A DNA stretch of 64,000 bases, from NCBI GenBank assembly GCA_965223555.1, contig CBDCWU010000009.1, forward strand, positions 375,619-439,618, in the 5' to 3' direction. Source of the DNA: Candidatus Promineifilaceae bacterium (GTDB lineage Bacteria > Chloroflexota > Anaerolineae > Promineifilales > Promineifilaceae). The notes beneath the pieces were generated by a model. It did no database searches and was not told the DNA's origin. It saw only the letters and a list, made by a program, of their open reading frames with translations. Position numbers and translations under genes: made by a program. Below are positions 33,499 through 46,700 of the stretch, in pieces; position 1 is the first letter of the stretch, and every line of letters begins with the position of its first letter.

Positions 33499-36210
33499 AT
33501 GAACCTTGCAAATTTTGAGGCAGATGTAGCGGCTCCACAACGGCCGTTACTGCAAACCAAGCTCTGTATGCCCCGTACCCGGCACAGGGCCATCTCTCGC
33601 CCACGCTTAATCGAACAGCTGAATACGGCCGTTACCCCCGATGGCCTCATCCAACCCAAACTCACCCTCATTACCGGCCCCGCTGGTTACGGCAAAACCA
33701 CCCTCGCCACACAGTGGCTTAGCAATTTACGATTAGAGAATATTGCAATCAGCAATCGGCAATCGCAAATTGTCAATCCACACCTGGCTTGGCTCTCCCT
33801 CGACACAGGCGACAACGACGAAGCCCGCTTCCTGGCCTACCTCTTTGCCGCCATCGGCACGGTGCAGGAAGAGATTGGCGAGGCAGCCCAATCTCGCCTC
33901 ACCACCACGTACCTCTATAACGATACACAGGCTATCCTGACAACCTTTCTCAATGATCTGGCTGTGTGCAGCGAAACCATTGTCCTAGTTTTGGACGATT
34001 ATCACTTGATTACAGCCACGGCCGTTCATGAAATTACTACCTGCATTCTGCAGCACATGCCCGTGCAACTGCATATGGTCATCACCAGCCGCAGCGAGCC
34101 ACCCCTGCCTTTGGCCCTCCTGCGTGCTCGCCACAGCCTCAACGAAATCACTGCCCGTGATCTACGTTTTAACCAAGAAGAAGCTGCTCAGTTTTTGGGC
34201 CATACCATGAGTATACATCTGGCTCCTGCCCAAATCAGCCAGCTTGAGGAACAGGTTGAAGGCTGGGTCACAGGCTTACAATTGGCAGCCTTAGCTTTGC
34301 AGGAAAATGTGACCCTTCAACAATCCTTCTCCGGCAACCAACGCTATCTAGTGGATTATTTGGCCGAGCAGGTACTTGGCTGCCAACCGCCCGATGTACA
34401 GGAATTTTTGTTAAAAACGGCCGTTCTCAGCCAATTCAATGCCGATTTATGCGCCCATCTTACCGATTGTGATAGCCAAGCCATGCTCAGTTACCTTGAA
34501 ACTGCCAACCTCTTCCTCATCCCTCTAGACGCTGAGCGGCACTGGTATCGCTATCACCATCTATTTGCTGACTTTTTGCACGGCCGTTTGCAACAACAAA
34601 AATCCACCAGCACCATCTCTACTCTACACCAACGCGCTGCCCATTGGTATCAAGTCAATGGACAGCCGCTAACGGCCGTTGACCACGCCCTAGCCGCTGG
34701 CGACTACGATCTGGCCGTCACCGCCATTGAGCAAGTGGCCCGACAAGTGCTCATGTTTGGCGAAGGTAGCACCCTGCGCCATTGGCTAGAAAGCTTACCG
34801 GATGCCAAACGTACCGCTCAACCCAACCTTATCCTCTTCTATGCCTGGTCCCTCATCCGCACTGGCGATTTAGATCAGGCGAAAGTCATGCTGAAAGCCA
34901 TTAGCGACCAGCTAGATACACCACTGCTTTGGGGCGAATGGTCTGCTCTTTGGGCACGGCTGGCTGTTATGACGGGCGATGTAGACATCAACATTCGCTT
35001 CTCCCAAAAAGCCTTAGCCAAATTACCTCCCGACCAGCATATGCTCCGCAGCGAAGTCGCTATTAATCTGGGCTTTTCCCACTTGCAGCAAGCTGATGTG
35101 GCTGCCGCCCGAGCCGCTTTTGCCGAAGCCGCCCAAAACACAGCCCATGACCCTGGCCTGTGGGCCGTCATGTTCGCCACCTTCTATTGGGGACAAACAT
35201 ATGAGAGGCAAGCCCAGCTTCATGAGGCTTTTGAGATTTATCAGCGTGGTTTAACTTTAGCCGAGGGTCAAATGAACGGCCGTTCTCCCTCATCGGCCGT
35301 TGGCTTTATGCACATTGCCTTAGGACGTATTTACTACGAGTGGAACCGTCTGGCCGAAGCTGAAAGTCACATTCGCCGTGCCCTAGCCTGCGCCGAACGC
35401 AGTGGCGACCATAAAATGCTCATCTACAGCCGCGAAGCCCTAGCCCAACTCCTCACCACTTTAGGGGACTGGCAAGCAGCTCAAACTATCGTCAACGATT
35501 TGGAGCAGCAAACCCAGTCTCCCCCTGGAACATCTAAACTTCGTGCCATCCTGGCCTTGCAATGTAGCGACATAGCTACAGCCCAAAAGTGGGCGACCAA
35601 TCTAGAAATTGCCCTCACCGACCCGCCCCATCGCATCCAAGAATGGCCGATGGCCTATCTCACATTGGTGCAATTACACCTAGTGACGCGGGAGTTTGAG
35701 GGCGTTTTAGGCGTCTTAGACACATTGGCCGCCTACGGCAAAACTCGGCAAAGTACACAATTTTTACTTACGGTCCATTGTTTACAAGCGCTAGCCTATA
35801 GCAAACAGGGGGATATAGAAACGGCCGTTACCCATTGCCAACGTGCCTTGGCTCTGGCCGAACCAGGTGGCTATATCCGCCTCTTCCTCGATTATCAAGA
35901 TGCCGCACTGGCCCGTTTATGGCACCAGGTAGCTGCTAGTGGTGGGGCCACAGCCACATATGCCCATGCACTCCTAACCCATCTCCAGCCTGAAGAAGCC
36001 AGCTCCGTGCCCGCTGTCCAACCACTCAGCCCCCGCGAGTTGGAAGTGCTACAGCATTTGGCCGTTGGCCTCACTAACCGCCAGATCGCTGTCCAAATGG
36101 TCGTTACTATCAATACTGTCAAGGCCCACACGCGTCGTCTCTATGCCAAGCTGGATGTCAAAAGTCGCACTCAAGCTGTAGCCCGCGCTCGTCAATTGAA
36201 CCTCTTGTAA
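33499..36210 (+). CDS. MalT-like STAND ATPase / LuxR-family transcriptional regulator
   Basis: Walker A GPAGYGKTT, long TPR-like helical region, C-terminal LuxR HTH (LSPRELEVLQHLAVGLTNRQIA). Confidence 0.8.
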   Translation: MNLANFEADVAAPQRPLLQTKLCMPRTRHRAISRPRLIEQLNTAVTPDGLIQPKLTLITGPAGYGKTTLATQWLSNLRLENIAISNRQSQIVNPHLAWLSLDTGDNDEARFLAYLFAAIGTVQEEIGEAAQSRLTTTYLYNDTQAILTTFLNDLAVCSETIVLVLDDYHLITATAVHEITTCILQHMPVQLHMVITSRSEPPLPLALLRARHSLNEITARDLRFNQEEAAQFLGHTMSIHLAPAQISQLEEQVEGWVTGLQLAALALQENVTLQQSFSGNQRYLVDYLAEQVLGCQPPDVQEFLLKTAVLSQFNADLCAHLTDCDSQAMLSYLETANLFLIPLDAERHWYRYHHLFADFLHGRLQQQKSTSTISTLHQRAAHWYQVNGQPLTAVDHALAAGDYDLAVTAIEQVARQVLMFGEGSTLRHWLESLPDAKRTAQPNLILFYAWSLIRTGDLDQAKVMLKAISDQLDTPLLWGEWSALWARLAVMTGDVDINIRFSQKALAKLPPDQHMLRSEVAINLGFSHLQQADVAAARAAFAEAAQNTAHDPGLWAVMFATFYWGQTYERQAQLHEAFEIYQRGLTLAEGQMNGRSPSSAVGFMHIALGRIYYEWNRLAEAESHIRRALACAERSGDHKMLIYSREALAQLLTTLGDWQAAQTIVNDLEQQTQSPPGTSKLRAILALQCSDIATAQKWATNLEIALTDPPHRIQEWPMAYLTLVQLHLVTREFEGVLGVLDTLAAYGKTRQSTQFLLTVHCLQALAYSKQGDIETAVTHCQRALALAEPGGYIRLFLDYQDAALARLWHQVAASGGATATYAHALLTHLQPEEASSVPAVQPLSPRELEVLQHLAVGLTNRQIAVQMVVTINTVKAHTRRLYAKLDVKSRTQAVARARQLNLL

Positions 36211-38636: not shown

Positions 38637-40799
38637 TTACAGGTCGTTGATTAGTTTTTGGAATTCGGCTTCGTCGGCCAGGAATTCTAGGAGGGTGCGA
38701 TGGATGAACATCCAGCCGCCACCCACGCGGCGCAGCAATAGACGCGCCGCCATCCCATCCAAATAGGCAACCAACTTCCGATCCCGAAAAGGAAAGGGTA
38801 GCATCCCCTGCCGCGCCAACAACCAGCGCAACACATAATGCTTTATCACCGTTTCTCCCCCATATTGCATTGGCCCGATCATAAGCCCGATCATAAGCCC
38901 GACCACCAGCCCCAGCCCCAGCCCGAAAATCAGTTCACCAATGAGCGCAAAGATTAGTCCACCTCCCAATCCGAAAATTAGAGCAACAATTAGCCCATAC
39001 ACAGGACCTGTCCGCCGTGCATTATGCCATGATGTCCGAACACCTTGATTAGGTTGGGAACGTTGAAGCGTTCTATTTGTATGAATAAGAGATTCAAGTG
39101 CAGCTATTAGCCCGAAAATTAGCACACCGCCCAACCCGACAATCAGCCCAGCAATCAGCCCAGCAGTCAGCCCAGCAATCAGCCCGAAAATTAGCCCAGC
39201 ACCCAACCCAAAAATTAGCCCAGCGATCAATCCTTGTTTGATTTTTGACCGCAAAAGGGGAGAGTGAGGGCGTAGCCAACGGATTTCTTCAACTAACTGT
39301 ATAGGACCACTATCAGATACAAAAAACTGTTTAAGACTCTCGTCACGAATGCCTATACCACCTTTGAAACCGAGAAACAATCCTATTAACAGCCAAACAA
39401 CTAACCCTGCAATTAGCCCAAGAATTAGACCAACAACCAAGCTGGTAATCAGACTAAAAATTAATCCAATAACCAGACTAACAATCAGCCCAGCAATCAG
39501 CCCAGCAATCAGCCCGAAAAGCCAACGGTAGGAACGGGGATTGGGTGGCCAGCTTGGTTGTAGCTGCTCAATGTAAAAAACAGATTGGTTATGGGCTTGC
39601 AATTGGTGGGCAAGGTGGTACAACCAGGTTAAGGCGGCATGTTCATTATACGGGCCATCAGGGGGTAAGGGGCGGCGGTGCAAGTTGTGCTTGATGTAAG
39701 CGGTAAACAGTTGGTTCCGCTTGTCAGCCAAGCTCCCGCCTGCGGGCAAGGGCGTTTCACTAAAGGTGAAGGCCATGAGGTTAAGCATGAGGGGGGATTG
39801 GGCCAGTTCGCGCCACTCGTCGTCGGTGGCCACGGCTTGGCGCAGGCCGGCCAGGGGGGCGCTGAAGCTGGCTAGGTAGTCGTCTATCTGGCTGGGGGTC
39901 AGGGGCTGGAGGCGGATGGCGCTGCTGAGGTTGAGCTGTGCTTGCAGTTGCTCGTAATCGGCCAGGCGGCTGCACACCACCATGTCGGCGGGGTGGTCGG
40001 CTTTGAAGCTGTTGATGGCTGTCACACAAGCTTCGCGCTGTTCGGCAGCCACTTCATCCAGCCCATCCAGCAGCAGTGTTAACTGGTTGCCTGTCAGCCA
40101 GTCGCGGCTCAACTGGCGCGGGGCTTGGTACTGCACCAGCAATTCCTCCACTATCCAAGCAACCAAGTCCCCGCCTTCTCGCGCCCACGAGGAGAGATTA
40201 AGGACAATGGGAATGGGCTCATTGGGGTCGGCTTGGGCGGCGGTCAGCAACTCTTGCAAGAGTTGCAGCAGGGCAATGGTTTTGCCACTGGCTGGTTCGC
40301 CCAAAATCAGCAAGGCTCGTCCCCGCGCCGCGAATATTTGGGCCAAACTGGTGTCGGCTGGAATAGGCTGCTCCTCAGGGTAAAGGCTACGGTGGGGGCG
40401 GCTAAGGGCATCATGCTGGTAGCTCATGTCCAAGGCCAGGGCCACATCGTTGTGCAGGGCTGGCTCTAATATGCCCTCAATCCAGGTGTGGTGGATGTTG
40501 TTGAGGATGTTTTGGCGGTTGCGTTGTTGGGGGTGGCTGGGGGTGGCGGTGGTCAGGGCGGCAGCGAGTTCGGCGGCATTGGGCCACGTGAGTTTGTCAC
40601 GTTCCTCACGTAAAGCGGCAATTAGTTCATCTAATTGCTCGCGCCGCTGCACGTGAGTTAGCAGGGAACGAATTTTGCTGGATTTGCGAAAGCCATCCAA
40701 CTCGTCCCAATCCACACCTAAATCCATAGCCAAACCGCGTAGCTCTTCTTGGTCGAAGCTGCGGGCGATTTGTTGGTGGAGCTGTTTGGCTAGGTTCAT
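38637..40799 (-). CDS. NLR-like NACHT/STAND NTPase: N-terminal effector-associated (death-like) adaptor domain, NACHT core, and about 290-aa glycine-zipper TM repeat insertion before the C-terminal winged-helix motif
   Basis: Walker A LILGEPASGKT. Walker B LTLLLDGLDEV. Winged-helix motif RRVGGGWMFIHRTLLEFLA at the extreme C-terminus. Three blocks of (GLIxGLIx)n. The N-terminal ~60 aa are homologous to the N-terminus of the CHAT protein. Confidence 0.8.
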   Translation of the reverse strand: MNLAKQLHQQIARSFDQEELRGLAMDLGVDWDELDGFRKSSKIRSLLTHVQRREQLDELIAALREERDKLTWPNAAELAAALTTATPSHPQQRNRQNILNNIHHTWIEGILEPALHNDVALALDMSYQHDALSRPHRSLYPEEQPIPADTSLAQIFAARGRALLILGEPASGKTIALLQLLQELLTAAQADPNEPIPIVLNLSSWAREGGDLVAWIVEELLVQYQAPRQLSRDWLTGNQLTLLLDGLDEVAAEQREACVTAINSFKADHPADMVVCSRLADYEQLQAQLNLSSAIRLQPLTPSQIDDYLASFSAPLAGLRQAVATDDEWRELAQSPLMLNLMAFTFSETPLPAGGSLADKRNQLFTAYIKHNLHRRPLPPDGPYNEHAALTWLYHLAHQLQAHNQSVFYIEQLQPSWPPNPRSYRWLFGLIAGLIAGLIVSLVIGLIFSLITSLVVGLILGLIAGLVVWLLIGLFLGFKGGIGIRDESLKQFFVSDSGPIQLVEEIRWLRPHSPLLRSKIKQGLIAGLIFGLGAGLIFGLIAGLTAGLIAGLIVGLGGVLIFGLIAALESLIHTNRTLQRSQPNQGVRTSWHNARRTGPVYGLIVALIFGLGGGLIFALIGELIFGLGLGLVVGLMIGLMIGPMQYGGETVIKHYVLRWLLARQGMLPFPFRDRKLVAYLDGMAARLLLRRVGGGWMFIHRTLLEFLADEAEFQKLINDL
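38850..39530 (-). repeat. Three arrays of 12-nt tandem codon repeats (GCTGGGCTGATT-like, encoding A-G-L-I) inside the NACHT gene
   Basis: Direct tandem DNA repeats, e.g. aatcagcccagc x4 and gatcataagccc x2. In-frame, hence copy-number variable without frameshift. Confidence 0.7.
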
Positions 40800-40974
40800 G
40801 GTTGGTTTAGATAATAGTCAGCTTGCAGGAGATTGTACAGAGGAAGAAAAGGGATTACAACATCTGCACTCAAACAATTTGTTGCTTGACAACTCTCCTG
40901 GCAGGATCGTATCATCTGCTCACGATATTGTTCTCCGGTTAGATAAATATTTACTATCCATTCGCAAACAAAAC

Positions 40975-42261
40975 ATGACATCCGCGAATGGGCTTCAAGT
41001 AGCCGCTCGGTTGGGAACGTGTGCAGTTCATTATGAAATGAACGGCTACTTGGCAATCAGTGAGCAGTCCATGACAGCAAGCATCCCATTTCAACTTGAT
41101 AAACCGGGGAGTGGAGCCACGATTGTCTATCGCCCTTGGGGAATTTCTACGCTGAAAGTGCAAATAAGCACCCAAACAGATCTACCTCCTTTACGTCTAC
41201 GGCCGCAAAATGTGCACCCTGAAGAGGCAGCCAATGGGCTCTTTCGGGCCTTTGCTGATGATAGTGACGCCTTCATTATCAGCTGGGGTGGTGGCAATGA
41301 GCCGGGGCCATGCAGCCAAGCCGAAGATTTTCTGATGGCCTTTGAAAAGTGCGTGGACTTAAATCCGGGCGAAGGCAGCACTGTCTTTTTTAATGTGCAG
41401 CATGTGGGGCCAGATGTGCCGGAAACAAGCCTCATTACGTTGCAAGCCTATGATGAAGAGAGCGGGGATGTCGTAGCCGTGCTGCCTATTCAGATGGAAC
41501 AAACGGCGGCTTATCGGGCGGATGCGGTGCAATTTGTTGAGGCGGAGCCAGGGATTTGGCGACCATCAGGCAGCAGCTTGCCCACGTATGATCCGCGCTG
41601 GTGGCCGCGCTCAGTGGACTATGTGCCAGCCGATGAGTTGCCGCTAACAATTCAGTGGGGGAATAATGAGCTATTTGTGTTATGGCAGGATCATGTAGCT
41701 GCAACGGTAAGGGATCATACGCAGCCGACGATTTTGGATTTAGGCGACATTTCGTATGAACTATTTTACTTTGATGAGTGGCATGTGGCTTTACGAATCT
41801 GGTTTTTTTGGCTGGACAAGAATGTTGGCACGGATTTTTTTGTAGGGCGACATGAGGTGCCCGATGCCGAACGCTTTGATATGTTGATCCGACGCCAAGA
41901 CGGCGCCACGACGCTGGCTTGCACGGATTTGCATTGGCGGGAGACGTGGGGGCGGGTGAAAAAAGGCGAGCCGCTAGAGGCAACGCTGGGGCTGAGTACG
42001 GATACAAAGATTAAGCTGGCCAAGGAGGCTTTGGGCAAGGTGTGGCAGGTGTGGCAGCGGGATGAGAAGGTGGATCATAAACGGCCGTATGACCCTCTCA
42101 CCTATATCCAACGCATGGCCGCCACTCTGGGGGCAGAAGCTGTAGGCACGGTTCGGGCCAAAGGCACCGAAGCCCATTTGCCCGCTTTGCAAAATGTGGA
42201 AACAACTGACCAACCAGGCCGGCCGCCACGCATGACAAGTAGTGATGTGAGATTAGGATAG
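40975..42261 (+). CDS. Hypothetical protein (428 aa) divergent from NACHT gene and immediately upstream of CHAT gene
   Basis: No recognisable motif. The track ORF begins at 40675 but that would overlap the NACHT start; the first ATG after the NACHT gene is 40975. Confidence 0.5.
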   Translation: MTSANGLQVAARLGTCAVHYEMNGYLAISEQSMTASIPFQLDKPGSGATIVYRPWGISTLKVQISTQTDLPPLRLRPQNVHPEEAANGLFRAFADDSDAFIISWGGGNEPGPCSQAEDFLMAFEKCVDLNPGEGSTVFFNVQHVGPDVPETSLITLQAYDEESGDVVAVLPIQMEQTAAYRADAVQFVEAEPGIWRPSGSSLPTYDPRWWPRSVDYVPADELPLTIQWGNNELFVLWQDHVAATVRDHTQPTILDLGDISYELFYFDEWHVALRIWFFWLDKNVGTDFFVGRHEVPDAERFDMLIRRQDGATTLACTDLHWRETWGRVKKGEPLEATLGLSTDTKIKLAKEALGKVWQVWQRDEKVDHKRPYDPLTYIQRMAATLGAEAVGTVRAKGTEAHLPALQNVETTDQPGRPPRMTSSDVRLG

Positions 42262-42358: not shown

Positions 42359-44086
42359 ATGAACAGAAGGGATCTCGTTAAGTTAATAGCCCGTGATTTT
42401 GCGGATCAAGAGGAGTTTACCGATCTGCTCTTTGAGCTTGATTTAGAATACGGCAACATAAAAGGCAGCACGATTTCGGCCAAGTCACGTGAATTAGTGA
42501 CTTACAAGGAACGCCGTGGTGAAGTGGAAGAGTTATTAACAGCAATCGTCGCGATGCGACCAAATTTACAGGAACAGTTGGAAGCATATGATGGTGTGCG
42601 GCCTGGCATGGATATTGGCAAGAACAAAGGTCAAGGCTCATCCAGGCGGGGAGGGCAATCTCATCCAGGAATGGGTGATGATACGACTGATGAGCAGCAA
42701 GGTTTAGCATACGAGAATTTTGATATACGGATTCTGACGGCGGATTCAGATGGCAGTTATCGCATTCAAGTAAATCGTAATCCCGAAAATATGGAGATGT
42801 ACGATGATGTACGGCAGAAGTTTCCCCTGGATGATTATGATTTTGTTGATTTGGTAGATTACTTGTCTGATTTGATTGCCCAAGGGAATGATGCCAAACA
42901 GTTGGGGAAAATGATGCGCGACTTGCTCTTTCCGGGGCGTATTGGCGAGATATTTTTTGCCAATATGGGCAGTATGCGGCGGCAGGGGAAGGGGTTGCGC
43001 ATTCGTTTGCGCATTGATGCGCCGGAATTGAGCAAACTACCTTGGGAATATTGTTATGGCGGGGATGAGTTTGGCTTTTTTGCTCTGGACCCGCGTACGC
43101 CGCTGGTGCGCTATATTGCACGGCCGTTTGAGACTTCAACACTAGCTGTACCCAACCCCATGAAAGTGCTGCTGGCGATTGCGGCACCCTCAGACCAAGC
43201 ACCTTTGAGTGTGGATGAGGAAGAGCGGCGGGTGCGCAGTTGGCTCAGCGTGATGGGGGATCGGGTACAGTTGCGAGTAGTGCGCAATGCCACCCCGCAG
43301 CGTCTACAGGCAGCCTTGACGGATTCACCCCACATTTTCCACTTTATTGGGCATGGTGAATTTGTAGATGGGATGGGCAAATTGGTGCTGGAGGATAATT
43401 TTGGTAAATCTGAATATCGTGATTCGGAGCAGTTGAAGGTGATGCTGCGTGGGCGTGATGTGAAGGTAGTGATTCTGAATGCTTGTAAGTCGGCGGCGGG
43501 CAATGCCCACGCCGCTTTTGCGGGGGTGGCTCCAGCCTTGGTGCAGGCAGATGTGCCGGCGGTGATTGCCATGCAGTTTAATGTGCCGGACAAGACAGCC
43601 TTGGGCTTTACGCAGGATTTGTATCGCTATTTGATGGCGGGTTATCCTCTGGATCAGGCGGTGACGGAGATGCGGGCGGGGGCGTTTAATAATGCCAATG
43701 ATAAGTATTTCTGGGGTATCCCGGCCTTGTATATGCGCTCACCAGACGGCCGTTTGTGGGAGCCTGAGGCTGAATTATTGGCTAAGTTTGAGGAGGCGCG
43801 GGAAACGGCCGTTGACCAAGCTGGTGCCACGATTCCTGAGTTATTGCAGCAAATTAAAGATGAGGTGCAGAGCGCGGGTGATGTTGATGATCGAGATCGA
43901 GAGTACATTCTGCGCGGTTTAGATGATGGTTTGAGAGCGGCCAATGAAGGAGACGGCCGAGATGTGGCCTATTATCTTAACCGTGTTATTGATGATCTGA
44001 AGCGTTCTCGTTCGGATACGGCCGAGAAAGAGATTGTGCCGAAGGTGGAATTTGTGATACAGCGGGCAGAGAACGAGATGGGTTAA
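42359..44086 (+). CDS. CHAT-domain caspase-like peptidase with N-terminal effector-associated adaptor domain
   Basis: Catalytic His (IFHFIGHGEF) and Cys (VVILNACKSAAG) of the caspase-haemoglobinase fold, preceded by the LPWEYCYG helical region. N-terminal 65 aa align with the NACHT N-terminus (IAR.F.DQEE...L..L...G...K.R.L.T...RR...EL). Confidence 0.85.
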   Translation: MNRRDLVKLIARDFADQEEFTDLLFELDLEYGNIKGSTISAKSRELVTYKERRGEVEELLTAIVAMRPNLQEQLEAYDGVRPGMDIGKNKGQGSSRRGGQSHPGMGDDTTDEQQGLAYENFDIRILTADSDGSYRIQVNRNPENMEMYDDVRQKFPLDDYDFVDLVDYLSDLIAQGNDAKQLGKMMRDLLFPGRIGEIFFANMGSMRRQGKGLRIRLRIDAPELSKLPWEYCYGGDEFGFFALDPRTPLVRYIARPFETSTLAVPNPMKVLLAIAAPSDQAPLSVDEEERRVRSWLSVMGDRVQLRVVRNATPQRLQAALTDSPHIFHFIGHGEFVDGMGKLVLEDNFGKSEYRDSEQLKVMLRGRDVKVVILNACKSAAGNAHAAFAGVAPALVQADVPAVIAMQFNVPDKTALGFTQDLYRYLMAGYPLDQAVTEMRAGAFNNANDKYFWGIPALYMRSPDGRLWEPEAELLAKFEEARETAVDQAGATIPELLQQIKDEVQSAGDVDDRDREYILRGLDDGLRAANEGDGRDVAYYLNRVIDDLKRSRSDTAEKEIVPKVEFVIQRAENEMG

Positions 44087-44238
44087 CAGTAAACGGTAAC
44101 CCATAAGGCGGCAAAGCCGCAAAATTTTTCCACAAAGGGTACAAAGGACACAAAATTTATCTATACTTGGTGTTATTCGTGACCTTCGTGGAGGACAATT
44201 TACGCTTATGGTGCACATTTCGCGCTTGTACGAAGTAA

Positions 44239-44275
44239 CCGGATTACGGTTTACCGATTACTGATTACGGAACAT
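44239..44275. repeat. Copy of ccggattacggtt.accgatta repeat element between CHAT and nuclease genes
   Basis: cggattacggtttaccgattactgattacgg compared with 18395-18425. Confidence 0.4.
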
Positions 44276-45074
44276 GCCAGATACGCTCACCCTTAGTCGC
44301 ACGAAGTTTTCTGCTTTTTTGGCTTGCCAGCGGCGCTTTGAATTGCGCTATTTGCGGCAATTGTCCTGGCCAGATGTGCCTTTGTCGGAGCAGTCGGCCT
44401 TGGTGCAGAAACGGGGGCAACAGTTTCATCAGTTGTTGGAAAGACATTTCCTAGGGCTGTCAATAGAGTTGAATGGCATTAGCGACAGTGTGGTGCGCCG
44501 ATGGTGGCTGGCATTTCAGGGCAGTAATCCAGTCTCCAGTCTCCAATCTCCAGCCTCTAGCTGGCAACGATTACCAGAACTGTCGCTCACTATTCCGGTG
44601 GGAGGTTATTTGCTGAACGGCCGTTTCGACCTCCTCGTTATAGCTGACCAACAAGCCCACATCTTTGACTGGAAAACGGGCAAACCCCAACCGGAGCGGC
44701 GTTTGCGCCATGATTGGCAAACACGCCTTTATTTGGCAATGGTAGCCGAGAGCAGCACGGCATTGGGGGCAGATTTTGCGCCGGAGCAGATTACCCTCAC
44801 CTACTGGTATGTGTCCGAACCAGATGCGCCGCGCACAATCCAGTATGATGCGGCCTGGCATAGGCAAAATTGGGCCGAGATTGAGCAGTTGGTGACACAA
44901 ATTGAGGTCGCCACAGCTGAGGGGATGTGGCCGTTAACGGATGATTGGGAGCAATGCCGTCCGTGTGCCTATCGGGCCCATTGTGGGCGACAAGAGGTTG
45001 AAACGGCCGAATCCGCTCCCGATGAAGATGCAGAAGAAGTTGTGAGTTTGCAATTGGAACCAAATATCCCATAA
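44274..45074 (+). CDS. PD-(D/E)XK nuclease with Cas4/AddB-like Fe-S cysteine cluster
   Basis: Motifs GRFDLLV ... IFDWKTGK (D ... D/ExK). One N-terminal Cys plus C-terminal C-X2-C-X5-C (CRPCAYRAHC). Confidence 0.6.
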   Translation: MPDTLTLSRTKFSAFLACQRRFELRYLRQLSWPDVPLSEQSALVQKRGQQFHQLLERHFLGLSIELNGISDSVVRRWWLAFQGSNPVSSLQSPASSWQRLPELSLTIPVGGYLLNGRFDLLVIADQQAHIFDWKTGKPQPERRLRHDWQTRLYLAMVAESSTALGADFAPEQITLTYWYVSEPDAPRTIQYDAAWHRQNWAEIEQLVTQIEVATAEGMWPLTDDWEQCRPCAYRAHCGRQEVETAESAPDEDAEEVVSLQLEPNIP

Positions 45075-45103
45075 TAAGACAGCGGATTTACGGAATGGTT
45101 TTT

Positions 45104-45142
45104 GACACGGATAGGGAAGAGGCCTTATCCGTGTTTGTTTTT
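45104..45142 (+). terminator. Rho-independent terminator closing the CHAT-nuclease unit
   Basis: acacggata-loop-tatccgtgt followed by TTGTTTTTT. Confidence 0.7.
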
Positions 45143-45147
45143 TATCT

Positions 45148-46320
45148 ATGACTTTAGATGAGTTTTATTTTTTGTTGACGGCTGAAGGGCAGCAGCTTTT
45201 GGGCCAGGTTCCCTTAATTACGCCGGAAACGCATTTGGCAACGGCGGTCCAGTTACGACGCCAGGTGGGCCAGGGGTTGGCGCAGGCAGTACTGGAAACA
45301 GCCTTATTGCGGCAGGAAGCGGCCGTTAAGTTTAGCCGAGCGTCTGATATGTACTTCAGTCGGGAAGCTTTGGAACAATCCTCATCGGAGGTGGTAGCTA
45401 GGTATCGGGCAGAGCGTTTTTTTCGGGCTGGGATTGAGCGCGTGGCAGATTTGGGCTGCGGCATTGGCGGTGACTCGTTGGCATTGGCGGCAGGGATGGA
45501 AGTGATGGGGGTGGAGTGGCAGCCAGTACGGTTGGCCATGGCCCAAGAGAATGTGCGGGTGTATGGTCATGGGGCTAATTTTCGGCCGTTGCAGGCAGAT
45601 TTACTGGAATTAACGCCGCTGCCTGTGCAGGCCGCTTTTTTTGATCCAGCGCGGCGGGATGAAAACGGCCGTCGTCTCACTTCTGTTCATCAATATCGGC
45701 CCCCACTTAGTTTGATTGACAAGTGGCGGGTGTGGATTGGGGAAACGGCCGTGAAAATCAGCCCCGGCGTGGCCTATGACGAATTGCCAGAAGATGCTGA
45801 GATAGAGTTCATTTCTGTAAATGGTGATGTAAAAGAAGGCGTATTGTGGTTTGGCGATTTGCGCTCCGGTGTTAGGCGACGGGCGACATTATTGCCCTCA
45901 GGTGAGACGTTGACAGACAGGGAGATGCCGATGACACCCATTGCTGTGACTAAACCACAGGCCTACCTGTATGAGCCAGACAAGGCGGTAATTCGGGCAC
46001 ATCTGGTGCAAGCATTGGCACAGCAGTTGGGGGCAACTAAACTGGATGAGGAGATCGCCTATTTAACGGCCGATTCAGTCCAACCAACTCCTTTTGCTCG
46101 CTGTTTTGTCATTGAGGATTGGTTTCCCTTCCAACTTAAACGGCTGCGGCACTATTTACGGGAGCGTGATATAGGACGTGTGGTCATCAAAAAGCGCGGT
46201 TCGCCCTTGCAGCCAGAAACATTGCAACGCCAATTACGCTTACAAGGCGATAATGAATGTATTATCTTTTTGACACATGTGGGGGGAGAAGCGGCCGTTT
46301 TAATTGGGCAACGCCCTTAG
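45148..46320 (+). CDS. Class I SAM-dependent methyltransferase (putative RNA methyltransferase with N-terminal extension)
   Basis: Motif I VADLGCGIGGDSLALA. 390 aa. Confidence 0.5.
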   Translation: MTLDEFYFLLTAEGQQLLGQVPLITPETHLATAVQLRRQVGQGLAQAVLETALLRQEAAVKFSRASDMYFSREALEQSSSEVVARYRAERFFRAGIERVADLGCGIGGDSLALAAGMEVMGVEWQPVRLAMAQENVRVYGHGANFRPLQADLLELTPLPVQAAFFDPARRDENGRRLTSVHQYRPPLSLIDKWRVWIGETAVKISPGVAYDELPEDAEIEFISVNGDVKEGVLWFGDLRSGVRRRATLLPSGETLTDREMPMTPIAVTKPQAYLYEPDKAVIRAHLVQALAQQLGATKLDEEIAYLTADSVQPTPFARCFVIEDWFPFQLKRLRHYLRERDIGRVVIKKRGSPLQPETLQRQLRLQGDNECIIFLTHVGGEAAVLIGQRP

Positions 46321-46700
46321 CTAACTGAATTGTTCGTATACTGCTTGATAACTTCGCGCAATTTGCGAATATCTAATGGCTTGGGTAGATAATCATCACA
46401 ACCAGCTTCAAGGCAGCGTTCCCGGTCACCAACCAACACTTGGGCTGTCGTAGCAATAAGCGGTACCGGGGCCAATCGTTCATCAGCCTTAAAGCAACGG
46501 GCTAACTCTAAACCATCAATTCCTGGCAGGTTAATATCTAGCAAAATAATGTCAGGTACTATATGCTCTAAAATATCAAGGGCCGTAGGACCATCTTCTG
46601 CTTTGATTACTTCATGTCCCGCTGCTTCCACAACACGACTAACTAAAATCATATTGGCCGGATTATCTTCAATGCATAGTACAATCATCTGTTTGAGCAT
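46317..46700 (-). CDS. Single-domain response regulator
   Basis: Receiver fold (ILLDINLPGIDG). 127 aa. Confidence 0.75.
   Translation of the reverse strand: MLKQMIVLCIEDNPANMILVSRVVEAAGHEVIKAEDGPTALDILEHIVPDIILLDINLPGIDGLELARCFKADERLAPVPLIATTAQVLVGDRERCLEAGCDDYLPKPLDIRKLREVIKQYTNNSVS

What the first reader, a model, noticed from the sequence alone, without database searches (positions are those of the whole stretch)
40975..42261. Uncharacterised 428-aa protein between the NACHT and CHAT genes
It is transcribed divergently from the NACHT gene and sits only ~100 nt upstream of the CHAT gene, so it is probably co-operonic with the protease. It has no signal peptide, TM helix or motif that I can recognise, is Trp-rich (WGGGNEPG, WRPSGSS, RWWPR, WQVWQ) and lacks the adaptor domain. 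In tripartite NLR-like systems the third gene is often a second effector, a trigger-binding sensor or an immunity or chaperone factor.
Basis: inference. Interest (0 to 1): 0.55.

Follow-up and report, generated by a model that had tools for sequence, protein, structure and literature searches.

The report
Unknown partner protein of caspase-like proteases
The gene is real and encodes an undescribed, mostly beta-strand protein that in filamentous Chloroflexota nearly always sits beside, or is fused to, a caspase-like protease, so it is probably what that protease acts on or is controlled by in a cell-death or immunity pathway.

Summary
The ORF at 40975-42261 exists. Alignment with homologues puts the true start at ATG 41071, giving 396 aa rather than 428. 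The protein belongs to a small family: 149 representatives among 1.84 billion proteins, with no match in Pfam, NCBIfam, PADLOC, PHROGs or PDB sequences.

The AlphaFold model is confident (pLDDT 85, pTM 0.88). It shows two beta-sandwich-like domains and a C-terminal segment that folds back. Fold searches return only generic Ig-like matches.

Of 35 informative, non-redundant loci, 26 have a CHAT protease gene directly adjacent. This holds at 26% identity, in non-syntenic contexts and with reversed gene order. A distant branch is fused to a clostripain-type (C11) protease. The partner that stays constant is the protease, not the NACHT. Only the window has a separate divergent EAD7-NACHT. Elsewhere the CHAT is fused to NACHT, iSTAND or nSTAND1, is coupled to an iSTAND/MoxR/vWA set, or has no STAND nearby.

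Nine loci are orphans, and Asgard archaea carry the same module with no protease nearby, so the fold has an activity of its own.

My best reading (about 0.4) is a protease-gated pro-effector in an NLR, adaptor, caspase-like protease, executioner cascade. A regulatory or sensor role (about 0.3) is not excluded.

The parts
41071..42261 (+). Most likely coding sequence of the target: a 396-aa cytosolic, acidic, Trp-rich protein of an undescribed family (two beta-rich domains plus a C-terminal helical/extended segment).
   Evidence: The start is set by the alignment of 38 and 53 homologues. AF2 model: pLDDT 84.8, pTM 0.88. No family match in any library.
40975..41070 (+). It is probably 5' untranslated leader rather than coding sequence.
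   Evidence: It is not conserved in homologues, most of which start at MTASIPF. The ORF in the 82%-identical locus L001 starts at the equivalent of 41071.
40886..40915 (+). Best sigma-70-like promoter match (TTGACA-18-TATCAT, 11 of 12) in the divergent intergenic region. It is a candidate promoter for the target-CHAT unit.
   Evidence: Consensus scan only; this is not evidence of function.
41284..41295 (+). Invariant WGGG motif (W72-G75) at the end of a strand in domain 1.
   Evidence: Invariant in 53 sequences. Kept in C11 fusions, orphans and, as YGGG/WGGG, in Asgard homologues. Coordinates verified.
41596..41607 (+). RWWP motif (R176-P179). R, W and W are invariant.
41851..41949 (+). The most conserved stretch of the family: HEVPDAERFD (H261-D270) and DLHWRETW (D286-W293). 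It is a candidate active site or metal/ligand-binding site.
   Evidence: Lowest column entropy in the alignment, 0.79-1.27 bits, with 14 invariant positions in residues 261-300. The PDxERxD and TDxHWxE motifs are retained in C11 fusions, orphans and Asgard proteins.
42154..42183 (+). RAKGTEAHLP (R362-P371): a segment that is strongly conserved yet predicted to be disordered. It is a candidate protease cleavage or docking site just before the C-terminal latch. This is inference.
   Evidence: pLDDT is below 50 for residues 360-369. G365, H369 and P371 are invariant, and E367 and A368 are at least 90% conserved.
42238..42258 (+). C-terminal SSDVRLG motif (S390, D392, V393 and R394 invariant). It is modelled as packing back on the beta core.
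   Evidence: pLDDT is about 84 for the last 20 residues. It is retained internally in C11 fusions, directly before the linker to the protease, and it is retained in orphans.
42359..44086 (+). Partner gene: EAD7-CHAT caspase-like protease (575 aa) with an intact His/Cys dyad (H332-G333, C376).
   Evidence: Pfam EAD7 2.7e-12 and CHAT 2.6e-27. The dyad is conserved in 28-29 of 29 partner CHAT domains.
38637..40799 (-). Accessory regulator in this genome: EAD7-NACHT (720 aa) with Walker A and Walker B motifs and a C-terminal multi-TM repeat region (residues about 424-627, window 38919-39530).
   Evidence: Pfam EAD7 2.2e-19 and NACHT 5.5e-06. Sequence and hydropathy analysis. Its EAD7 is 36% identical to the CHAT's EAD7, E = 3e-11.
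44108..44120 (+). Terminator-like hairpin 22 nt after the CHAT stop codon. It is a candidate end of the target-CHAT transcription unit.
   Evidence: Consensus scan only.
44274..45074 (+). PD-(D/E)XK (Cas4-like) nuclease gene. It is a syntenic neighbour in about 20 loci. Whether it belongs to the system is unresolved, and it is probably only a flanking gene.
   Evidence: Pfam PDDEXK_1 3.8e-28. It is present with ThumpMT-RR in syntenic loci but absent from L003, L028 and L040-42, which still have target + CHAT. Other genes are inserted between it and the CHAT in L004, L008 and L013.

Best explanation
The gene encodes a 396-aa soluble beta-rich protein that is the dedicated client of the neighbouring caspase-like CHAT protease. 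Together the two form a conserved two-gene core.

In this genome the proposed cascade is as follows. The membrane-embedded EAD7-NACHT NTPase senses a perturbation and oligomerises. It recruits EAD7-CHAT through homotypic EAD7 contacts, and proximity activates the protease. The protease then cleaves the beta-protein in an exposed but conserved loop (RAKGTEAHLP, residues 362-371). That cleavage loosens the C-terminal latch (the SSDVR motif) and unleashes an intrinsic activity of the beta core, whose candidate site is the invariant His/Asp/Glu/Trp cluster. The resulting logic is NLR, adaptor, caspase, executioner, but the executioner is not a gasdermin.

Shown here: the family exists, its fold class, its coupling to clan-CD proteases by adjacency and by fusion, catalytic competence of the CHAT and NACHT motifs, and EAD7 on both partners.

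Inferred: that the protein is a substrate, the cleavage position, the latch mechanism, and the nature of the activity. The coarser claim that this is a dedicated functional partner of clan-CD proteases in STAND/EAD conflict systems I hold at about 0.85. The pro-effector mechanism I hold at about 0.4.
For: - CHAT is adjacent in 26 of 35 informative non-redundant loci. These include non-syntenic contexts (L003, L020, L024, L028), the most distant bacterial members at 26-27% identity with overlapping stop/start codons (L040-42), and a locus with reversed gene order (L007).
- An independent Rosetta-stone link exists: three or more distant members are single polypeptides of this module plus Peptidase_C11, another clan-CD protease.
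- The CHAT dyad is intact. EAD7 is present on both the NACHT and the CHAT. EAD7 is found on the CHAT only where the CHAT is not fused to a STAND.
- The STAND partners carry their own sensor-type C-termini (multi-TM in the window and L003, FGS-like in L030), so a separate sensor is not obviously needed.
- Every experimentally solved case I could read of a defence protease with a conserved adjacent non-protease partner is a substrate or pro-effector. Examples are bGSDM with CHAT/caspase proteases, some fused to NACHT (10.1101/2021.06.07.447441), and trypsin-MBL (10.1101/2025.09.03.673762).
- The model shows a conserved but disordered loop followed by a C-terminal segment packed on the core, resembling the bGSDM arrangement of a cleavage loop and an inhibitory peptide.
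- The C11 fusion model is beads on a string (pTM 0.51) with a disordered linker right after the S-x-N-V-R motif, which is compatible with autoproteolytic release.
- The invariant His/Asp/Glu residues persist from Chloroflexota to Asgard archaea, which suggests catalysis or metal binding rather than a passive scaffold.
Against: - No cleavage, toxicity or enzymatic activity has been shown.
- In characterised systems, fusion of a module N-terminal to a protease is more typical of sensor or regulatory domains than of substrates.
- The C11 fusions are standalone genes with no other sensor nearby.
- Nine orphan loci and the Asgard homologues keep every motif, including the proposed loop and latch, without an adjacent protease. 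Those motifs are therefore not protease-specific.
- Within the syntenic block, co-evolution of target with CHAT (r = 0.74) is no tighter than with the flanking methyltransferase (r = 0.73).
- The protein is strongly acidic (57 D+E against 36 K+R), which argues against a nucleic-acid-binding effector.
Confidence: 0.4

Rival explanations
1. Regulatory or sensor module. The beta-protein binds a small molecule, metal (for example Ca2+), glycan or invader component in its invariant Trp/His/Asp/Glu pocket and switches the CHAT protease on. It would do this in trans here and in cis in the C11 fusions. The protease itself would be the effector, degrading cellular or phage proteins.
For: - The module lies N-terminal to the protease in standalone single-gene C11 fusions that have no other sensor nearby. 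This is the usual sensor-effector architecture.
- An aromatic-rich beta-sandwich with invariant polar residues resembles carbohydrate- or ligand-binding modules. Several weak fold hits are N-terminal beta-sandwich domains of glycoside hydrolases and Ca2+-binding Ig-like domains.
- The module is reused with unrelated partners (Zn-ribbon + DUF4332 in Asgard archaea; alone in orphans), as expected for a recognition module.
- Some STAND partners are short: L040 CHAT-nSTAND1 is 638 aa and L028 CHAT-iSTAND is 672 aa.
Against: - The STAND partners in the window, L003 and L030 already have sensor-like C-termini.
- The protein is not hypervariable: 41 invariant positions and mean pairwise identity 0.50, similar to the CHAT domain. 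A sensor of fast-evolving phage proteins would not look like this, although a sensor of a conserved ligand could.
- No signal-generating enzyme is conserved in the loci.
- The fold hits are non-specific, with TM-scores of 0.15-0.2.
- The fusion model shows no confident interdomain packing, pTM 0.51.
Confidence: 0.3
2. Trans-acting prodomain-like inhibitor or chaperone (an immunity factor). The protein binds the CHAT and keeps it latent or helps it fold, as securin does for separase or as separately encoded propeptide-like inhibitors do for some cysteine proteases. These comparisons are from memory. Activation would remove or displace it.
For: - The N-terminal position in the C11 fusions corresponds to where protease prodomains sit.
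- The gene is co-transcribed upstream of the protease.
- An invariant Arg lies in the C-terminal SSDVR motif directly before the linker to the protease in fusions, and could be a pseudosubstrate P1 residue.
Against: - About 40 invariant polar and aromatic residues spread over 396 aa far exceed what an inhibitor needs.
- Orphans and Asgard homologues without proteases keep all motifs.
- The fusion model gives no confident module-protease interface, pTM 0.51.
- The C-terminal motif is modelled as packed on the protein's own core.
Confidence: 0.12
3. Unrelated protein. It has its own housekeeping function, and its adjacency to the CHAT reflects inherited synteny in one Chloroflexota lineage rather than shared function.
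For: - Most CHAT-linked loci share the same chromosomal site (ABC transporter ... target-CHAT-PDDEXK-ThumpMT-RR) and all genes there co-vary equally.
- Nine orphan loci and the Asgard homologues lie in ordinary contexts.
- There are no relatives on phages, plasmids or viral contigs.
Against: - The pairing recurs outside the syntenic site: L003, L020, L024, L028 and L040-42, none of which has PDDEXK/ThumpMT.
- It survives reversal of gene order (L007) and divergent arrangement (L028).
- It survives exchange of the CHAT architecture.
- It is reinforced by gene fusion to a different clan-CD protease.
Confidence: 0.08

Closest known systems
Bacterial gasdermin + caspase-like/CHAT protease operons (Johnson et al., 10.1101/2021.06.07.447441)
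   Same: - A 5' gene encodes a soluble protein without protease motifs, and a 3' gene encodes a CHAT or caspase-like protease.
- The protease is sometimes fused to NACHT or repeat sensors.
- The partner has a flexible loop followed by a short C-terminal segment packed on the core.
   Different: - The protein is larger (396 aa).
- There is no N-terminal Cys of the kind reported to be palmitoylated in bGSDMs.
- Cleavage and pore formation are untested.
EAD-coupled STAND/ternary conflict systems, the EACC1-caspase two-gene system, and the Trypco-trypsin pairings (Kaur et al. 2020, PMC7159879; Kaur et al. 2021, PMC8195603)
   Same: - EAD7 on the NTPase and on the peptidase follows their 'EAD-coupling principle'.
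- The iSTAND/MoxR/vWA variants (L008, L023) are their subsystem 2.
- A conserved 5' constant component followed by a 3' caspase-superfamily gene mirrors EACC1-caspase.
- The hosts are filamentous or multicellular bacteria.
   Different: - The target matches neither the EACC1 nor the Trypco Pfam models, nor any other.
- EACC1 is a single-TM domain, whereas this is a 396-aa soluble beta protein.
- I found no mention of such a family in the passages of those papers that I read.
Trypsin-MBL module (10.1101/2025.09.03.673762) and Craspase-Csx30 (PMC9729208)
   Same: A sensor-coupled protease has a conserved adjacent protein that is its specific substrate. In trypsin-MBL that substrate is an autoinhibited enzyme released by loop cleavage.
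   Different: The protease class differs (trypsin) or the sensor differs (CRISPR). The partner folds are unrelated. Here the substrate relationship is only inferred.
Sensor-protease fusions such as SAVED-CHAT / TPR-CHAT
   Same: A non-catalytic module is fused or tightly coupled to a clan-CD protease. This is the architecture of the X-Peptidase_C11 proteins.
   Different: There is no SAVED, CARF or TPR similarity. No second-messenger synthase is conserved nearby. In most loci the module is a separate protein.

Membership tests
Bacterial gasdermin (bGSDM) | Gasdermin N-terminal-domain fold (twisted beta-sheet core with helices) or sequence homology to gasdermins | tested here: not met
   [not shown]
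Bacterial gasdermin (bGSDM) | Adjacent caspase-like/CHAT protease gene | tested here: met
   CHAT lies 97 nt downstream in the window and is adjacent in 26 of 35 loci.
Bacterial gasdermin (bGSDM) | Cleavage by the protease removes an inhibitory C-terminal peptide and causes membrane pores | not testable with these tools
   The only supporting observation is structural: a conserved disordered loop (residues 360-369) followed by a packed C-terminal motif.
EAD-coupled STAND conflict system (Kaur et al. 2020) | The same effector-associated domain on the NTPase component and on a separately encoded effector in adjacent genes | tested here: met
   EAD7 on the NACHT (2.2e-19) and on the CHAT (2.7e-12). 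The two copies are 36% identical, E = 3e-11. This applies to the system, not to the target, which has no EAD.
EAD-coupled STAND conflict system (Kaur et al. 2020) | STAND NTPase with intact Walker A/B motifs | tested here: met
   GEPASGKT and LLLDGLDE are present in the 720-aa protein. The Pfam NACHT score is exactly at the gathering score of 26.7 bits.
EACC1 (effector-associated constant component 1) | [quoted passage not shown] | tested here: not met
   No Pfam match even at E = 5 for 53 members. No TM-like segment. Only the gene order (5' of the peptidase) is analogous.
Clan-CD protease prodomain or inhibitor | Confident, specific packing against the protease with a segment occupying the active site | tested here: inconclusive
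   The AF2 model of the natural C11 fusion has pTM 0.51 and a disordered linker. The alignment is shallow and coordinates could not be inspected.
Carbohydrate-binding or ligand-binding beta-sandwich module | Specific structural or sequence similarity to a defined CBM or ligand-binding family | tested here: not met
   [not shown]
Known anti-phage defence system components (PADLOC-DB) | Match to a PADLOC model | tested here: not met
   Zero families for the target. The CHAT partner hits SAVED_CHAT only through its protease domain.

The most novel reading that the evidence does not exclude
This is a new, non-gasdermin family of executioner proteins that caspase-like proteases activate by removing a C-terminal latch. 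It would complete an inflammasome-like NLR, death-fold-like adaptor, caspase, executioner cascade in multicellular (filamentous) Chloroflexota. Its catalytic or metal-binding beta-module would be ancient enough to be shared with a conserved Asgard-archaeal protein.
Probability: 0.3. Interest if true: 0.8.

Novelty: new variant of a known kind. Interest (0 to 1): 0.6.

Why it matters
STAND/NLR-caspase-like systems are widespread in bacteria, but for most protease-bearing versions the protease's target is unknown. A protein family that stays with the protease while the NTPase, adaptor and gene order change, and that is sometimes fused to a protease, is a strong candidate for the missing downstream or upstream component. 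It gives a directly testable pair: purify the CHAT and the 396-aa protein and look for cleavage, then test toxicity of truncations.

If the protein is an executioner, it would be a second solution, independent of gasdermin, to protease-triggered cell death. If it is a sensor, it would define a new ligand-binding fold that controls caspase-like proteases. The link to a conserved Asgard-archaeal protein adds evolutionary interest.

Tried and rejected
2. Any known family by sequence. Pfam, PADLOC, NCBIfam, PHROGs, PDB phmmer, PDB profile search and a per-member Pfam scan at E = 5 were all empty.
3. The idea that the C-terminal AH(L/V)P and SSDVR motifs are protease-recognition elements lost in orphans. 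Rejected: orphans and Asgard proteins retain them.
4. A mirror-tree test for specific target-CHAT co-evolution. Not discriminating: r = 0.74 with CHAT, 0.73 with the methyltransferase and 0.69 with PD-(D/E)XK.
5. The 1512-aa EAD7-EAD7-Ig-target fusion in L023 as proof that the module is an EAD-recruited effector. Rejected: that copy has mutated invariant motifs and a truncated tail whose remnants lie after the stop codon, so it is a decaying paralogue.
6. The idea that the target supplies the sensor the STAND partners lack. Weakened: the window NACHT and L003 have multi-TM C-termini and L030 has an FGS-like C-terminus.
7. A mobile-element or phage origin. No relatives in viral contigs, plasmids or phages.
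8. AFDB50 fold search. The library was unavailable.
9. PD-(D/E)XK and the THUMP methyltransferase as system members. Probably only syntenic flank, because they are absent from the non-syntenic target+CHAT loci.
Full report
**1. The observation**

An ATG-initiated ORF of 428 codons runs from 40975 to 42261 on the + strand. It lies divergently from a 720-aa gene on the minus strand (38637-40799) that Pfam identifies as EAD7 + NACHT. It ends 97 nt upstream of a 575-aa gene (42359-44086) identified as EAD7 + CHAT. The protein has 14 Trp in 396 residues, no TM-like segment and an acidic composition, 57 D+E against 36 K+R.

The ORF is not a chance ORF. A search of 5.8 billion proteins gave 160 homologues with E-values down to 1e-236.

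One correction is needed. Alignments of 38 and 53 homologues show that the family starts at MTASIPF, which is ATG 41071, and most members are exactly 396 aa. In the 82%-identical locus L001 the ORF begins at the equivalent Met. The likely coding sequence is therefore 41071-42261 (396 aa), and 40975-41070 is probably leader.

**2. What the protein is**

No library recognises it:
- Pfam, PADLOC, NCBIfam and PHROGs give nothing.
- PDB sequences give nothing by phmmer or by family profile.
- A scan of all 53 aligned members against Pfam at E = 5 gives nothing recurrent.

An exhaustive profile search of 1.84 billion representative proteins found only 149 members, so the family is small.

AlphaFold2 with the family alignment gives a confident model (pLDDT 84.8, pTM 0.88). 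It has about 11 strands in residues 1-145 and about 13 strands in residues 150-306. Three helices follow (310-355), then an extended C-terminal segment modelled at pLDDT about 80-85. Three loops are low-confidence: 256-263, 320-329 and 360-369.

The family has 41 invariant positions in 53 sequences. They are concentrated in WGGG (72-75), H111, RWWP (176-179), LRxWFFW (241-247), HEVPDAERFD (261-270), DLHWRETW (286-293), the disordered-but-conserved RAKGTEAHLP (362-371) and the C-terminal SSDVRLG. The lowest column entropy is in residues 241-300.

**3. Genomic context in relatives**

I fetched 42 loci from metagenomes and from GTDB species representatives. All 33 genome hits are Chloroflexota of class Anaerolineae: Ardenticatenaceae, Promineifilaceae and Anaerolineales. 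I mapped neighbours with local HMMs seeded from the window's Pfam-identified genes, and confirmed key cases with Pfam.

After removing duplicates and four contigs that end at the gene, 35 loci are informative.

- **With adjacent CHAT: 26 loci.**
  - In 24 the CHAT is immediately downstream on the same strand, with gaps of -8 to 199 nt.
  - In one it is immediately upstream (L007; the CHAT stop abuts the target start).
  - In one it is divergent (L028).
- **Robustness of the pairing.**
  - It persists in the most distant bacterial members (L040-42, 26-27% identity).
  - It persists in loci that lack the otherwise recurrent flank PD-(D/E)XK / THUMP-methyltransferase / response regulator (L003, L020, L024, L028, L040-42).
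- **Orphans: nine loci** are in unrelated contexts such as SbcC-like, photolyase-related and Kelch genes.

Within the syntenic block a mirror-tree comparison does not single out the CHAT: r = 0.74 with CHAT against 0.73 with the methyltransferase. The evidence for functional coupling therefore rests on the non-syntenic and rearranged cases, and on gene fusion.

Three or more distant members (P0165, P0167, P0199 and relatives) are single polypeptides. They consist of this module, with all its motifs, followed by a Peptidase_C11 (clostripain) domain, which is another clan-CD caspase-fold protease. These fusions are standalone genes in housekeeping surroundings, with no STAND NTPase nearby.

**4. 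The NTPase layer is variable**

A separate divergent EAD7-NACHT is unique to the window. Elsewhere:
- The CHAT is fused to NACHT (L003, L020, L030), iSTAND (L028) or nSTAND1 (L040).
- Or the locus holds EAD7-iSTAND + two MoxR-type AAA + vWA, which is the iSTAND ternary system of Kaur et al. (PMC7159879) (L008, L023).
- Or no STAND is listed within 10 kb (L001, L002, L004, L007).

EAD7 is present on the CHAT only where the CHAT is a separate protein. This fits the EAD-coupling principle described in PMC7159879.

In the window the two EAD7 copies are 36% identical, E = 3e-11. The CHAT has an intact His/Cys dyad, conserved in 28-29 of 29 partner CHAT domains. The NACHT has Walker A and Walker B motifs.

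The NACHT's C-terminal region (residues about 424-627) consists of GLIxGLI-type hydrophobic repeats that score as TM segments. The CHAT-NACHT of L003 has about seven TM-like segments and the same terminal RRVGGG(W/F)xFI motif. The CHAT-NACHT of L030 ends in an FGS-like domain. The NTPases therefore have their own sensor-type regions.

**5. Transcription**

- The best promoter-like site on the + strand lies in the divergent intergenic region (40886-40915).
- There is no terminator-like hairpin between the target and the CHAT.
- One follows the CHAT stop (44108-44120), and a strong one follows the PD-(D/E)XK gene (45104-45135).
- An AGGAG lies 8 nt upstream of the CHAT start.

These are consensus matches only, but they fit a bicistronic target-CHAT unit.

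**6. Beyond Chloroflexota**

The most distant branch (P0178, P0195, P0276-P0287) comes from Asgard archaea: Loki-, Hel- and Hodarchaeota. It consists of proteins of about 855 aa with:
- an N-terminal helical region;
- this beta-module, retaining YxPxG, (W/Y)GGG, RW(H/Y)P, VRVWFWW, HEMPDFERVD, TDVHWKEFW, CHVP and SS-x-V-x-K;
- CxxC pairs;
- a C-terminal DUF4332 domain.

Two contexts examined show no protease and are not conserved. With the orphans, which also keep every motif, this shows that the module has an intrinsic activity independent of proteases. No relatives occur in viral contigs, plasmids or phage genomes.

**7. Mechanism**

Three things are shown: a conserved two-gene (or fused) unit of this module with a clan-CD protease, a catalytically competent protease, and a variable STAND/EAD regulatory layer. 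The role of the module is inferred.

*Pro-effector (my preferred reading, about 0.4).* The points in favour are:
- Every experimentally resolved example I could read of a defence protease with a conserved adjacent partner is a substrate. These are bacterial gasdermins with CHAT/caspase proteases, some NACHT-fused, and trypsin-MBL.
- The NTPases already carry sensor regions.
- The invariant His/Asp/Glu/Trp set, conserved from bacteria to archaea, looks catalytic or metal-binding.
- The model has a conserved yet disordered loop (360-369) followed by a C-terminal motif packed on the core. This is formally like the cleavage loop and inhibitory peptide of bGSDMs.
- The model of the natural C11 fusion is beads on a string (pTM 0.51), with a disordered linker immediately after the S-x-N-V-R motif. 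This is compatible with autoproteolytic release, and it gives no support to a tightly packed prodomain.

*Regulatory or sensor module (main rival, about 0.3).* This is favoured by the N-terminal fusion to a protease in standalone genes, by reuse of the module in other architectures, and by the aromatic-rich sandwich.

*Inhibitor or chaperone (about 0.12) and coincidental synteny (about 0.08)* are less likely, for the reasons given under the rival explanations.

I tested whether the C-terminal motifs are specific to protease-linked members. They are not. That removes one argument for the pro-effector model but does not contradict it.

**8. Comparison with known systems and novelty**

The system in the window is a member of the EAD-coupled STAND conflict systems of Kaur et al. 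(PMC7159879, PMC8195603). Both EAD7 pairing and an intact NTPase were tested here and met.

The target itself is not a member of any described family:
- It fails the gasdermin fold test.
- It fails the EACC1 test (no TM segment, no Pfam match).
- It matches no PADLOC model.

In gene order it works like the gasdermin or EACC1 slot, as the 5' constant partner of a caspase-superfamily gene. I found no description of this family in the papers I searched.

I therefore rate it a new variant of a known kind: a new component family in a known class of system, not a new kind of system. Interest is moderate to high (0.6). It offers a concrete, testable candidate for what STAND-coupled CHAT proteases act on or respond to, with an unexpected Asgard connection. 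The function remains unproven.

Noticed in passing
window 38919-39530 (minus strand; residues about 424-627 of the NACHT protein 38637-40799): The NACHT protein has no LRR, TPR or WD40 sensor. Instead it carries about 200 residues of low-complexity GLIxGLI-type hydrophobic repeats that score as several TM helices. After these comes a conserved RRVGGGWMFI motif that is shared with the CHAT-NACHT of locus L003. This suggests a membrane-embedded bacterial NLR.
   Followed up: partly
L046 8001-10553; L047 8001-10568 (proteins P0276, P0285; also P0178, P0195, P0279-P0284): Asgard archaea (Loki-, Hel- and Hodarchaeota) encode conserved proteins of about 855 aa in which the same beta-module is combined with an N-terminal helical region, CxxC Zn-ribbon-like pairs and a C-terminal DUF4332 domain. 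No protease lies nearby. The function is unknown.
   Followed up: partly
window 44274-46700 and loci L001, L002, L004, L007, L008, L011-L018, L030-L033: The block PD-(D/E)XK nuclease / THUMP-like methyltransferase / response regulator (usually followed by giant PAS/GAF kinases) recurs to the right of target-CHAT. An SBP/permease/ABC transporter recurs to the left. Variable genes are inserted between them: an RT-like 758-aa protein, a 359-aa protein, an AMP-binding protein, and iSTAND/MoxR/vWA genes. The site looks like a conserved chromosomal hotspot for conflict-system cargo in Anaerolineae.
   Followed up: partly
L023 6494-11032 and 11237-12598: There are two tandem copies of the family. The first is fused in frame to a large protein with two EAD7 domains and an N_BRCA1_IG domain. 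It has mutated invariant motifs (WGRG, HQVPDVKRFD, DNHF) and a premature stop, and remnants of its tail (MAKGTEAHLLQLQNV) are readable downstream. It is a decaying paralogue.
   Followed up: yes
L030 11246-16676: Two CHAT genes sit in tandem after the target. One is a 1258-aa CHAT-NACHT with a C-terminal FGS-like domain. The other is a 542-aa EAD7-CHAT. This could be a protease cascade, or two alternative partners.
   Followed up: no
window 33499-36210 (+): A 903-aa MalT-like STAND ATPase with TPR repeats and a LuxR/GerE HTH lies about 2.4 kb beyond the 3' end of the NACHT gene, separated from it by NHL/SGL-like and DUF1186/HEAT genes. It is a second STAND-type protein in the same neighbourhood, and is probably a transcription regulator.
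   Followed up: no
L004 11204-13480 (also L005, L025): A 758-aa protein with a weak reverse-transcriptase (RVT_1) hit is inserted between the EAD7-CHAT and the PD-(D/E)XK gene.
   Followed up: no
L034 7199-8379: The family member here is split into two overlapping ORFs (151 and 242 aa). This is either a frameshifted pseudogene or an assembly error.
   Followed up: no
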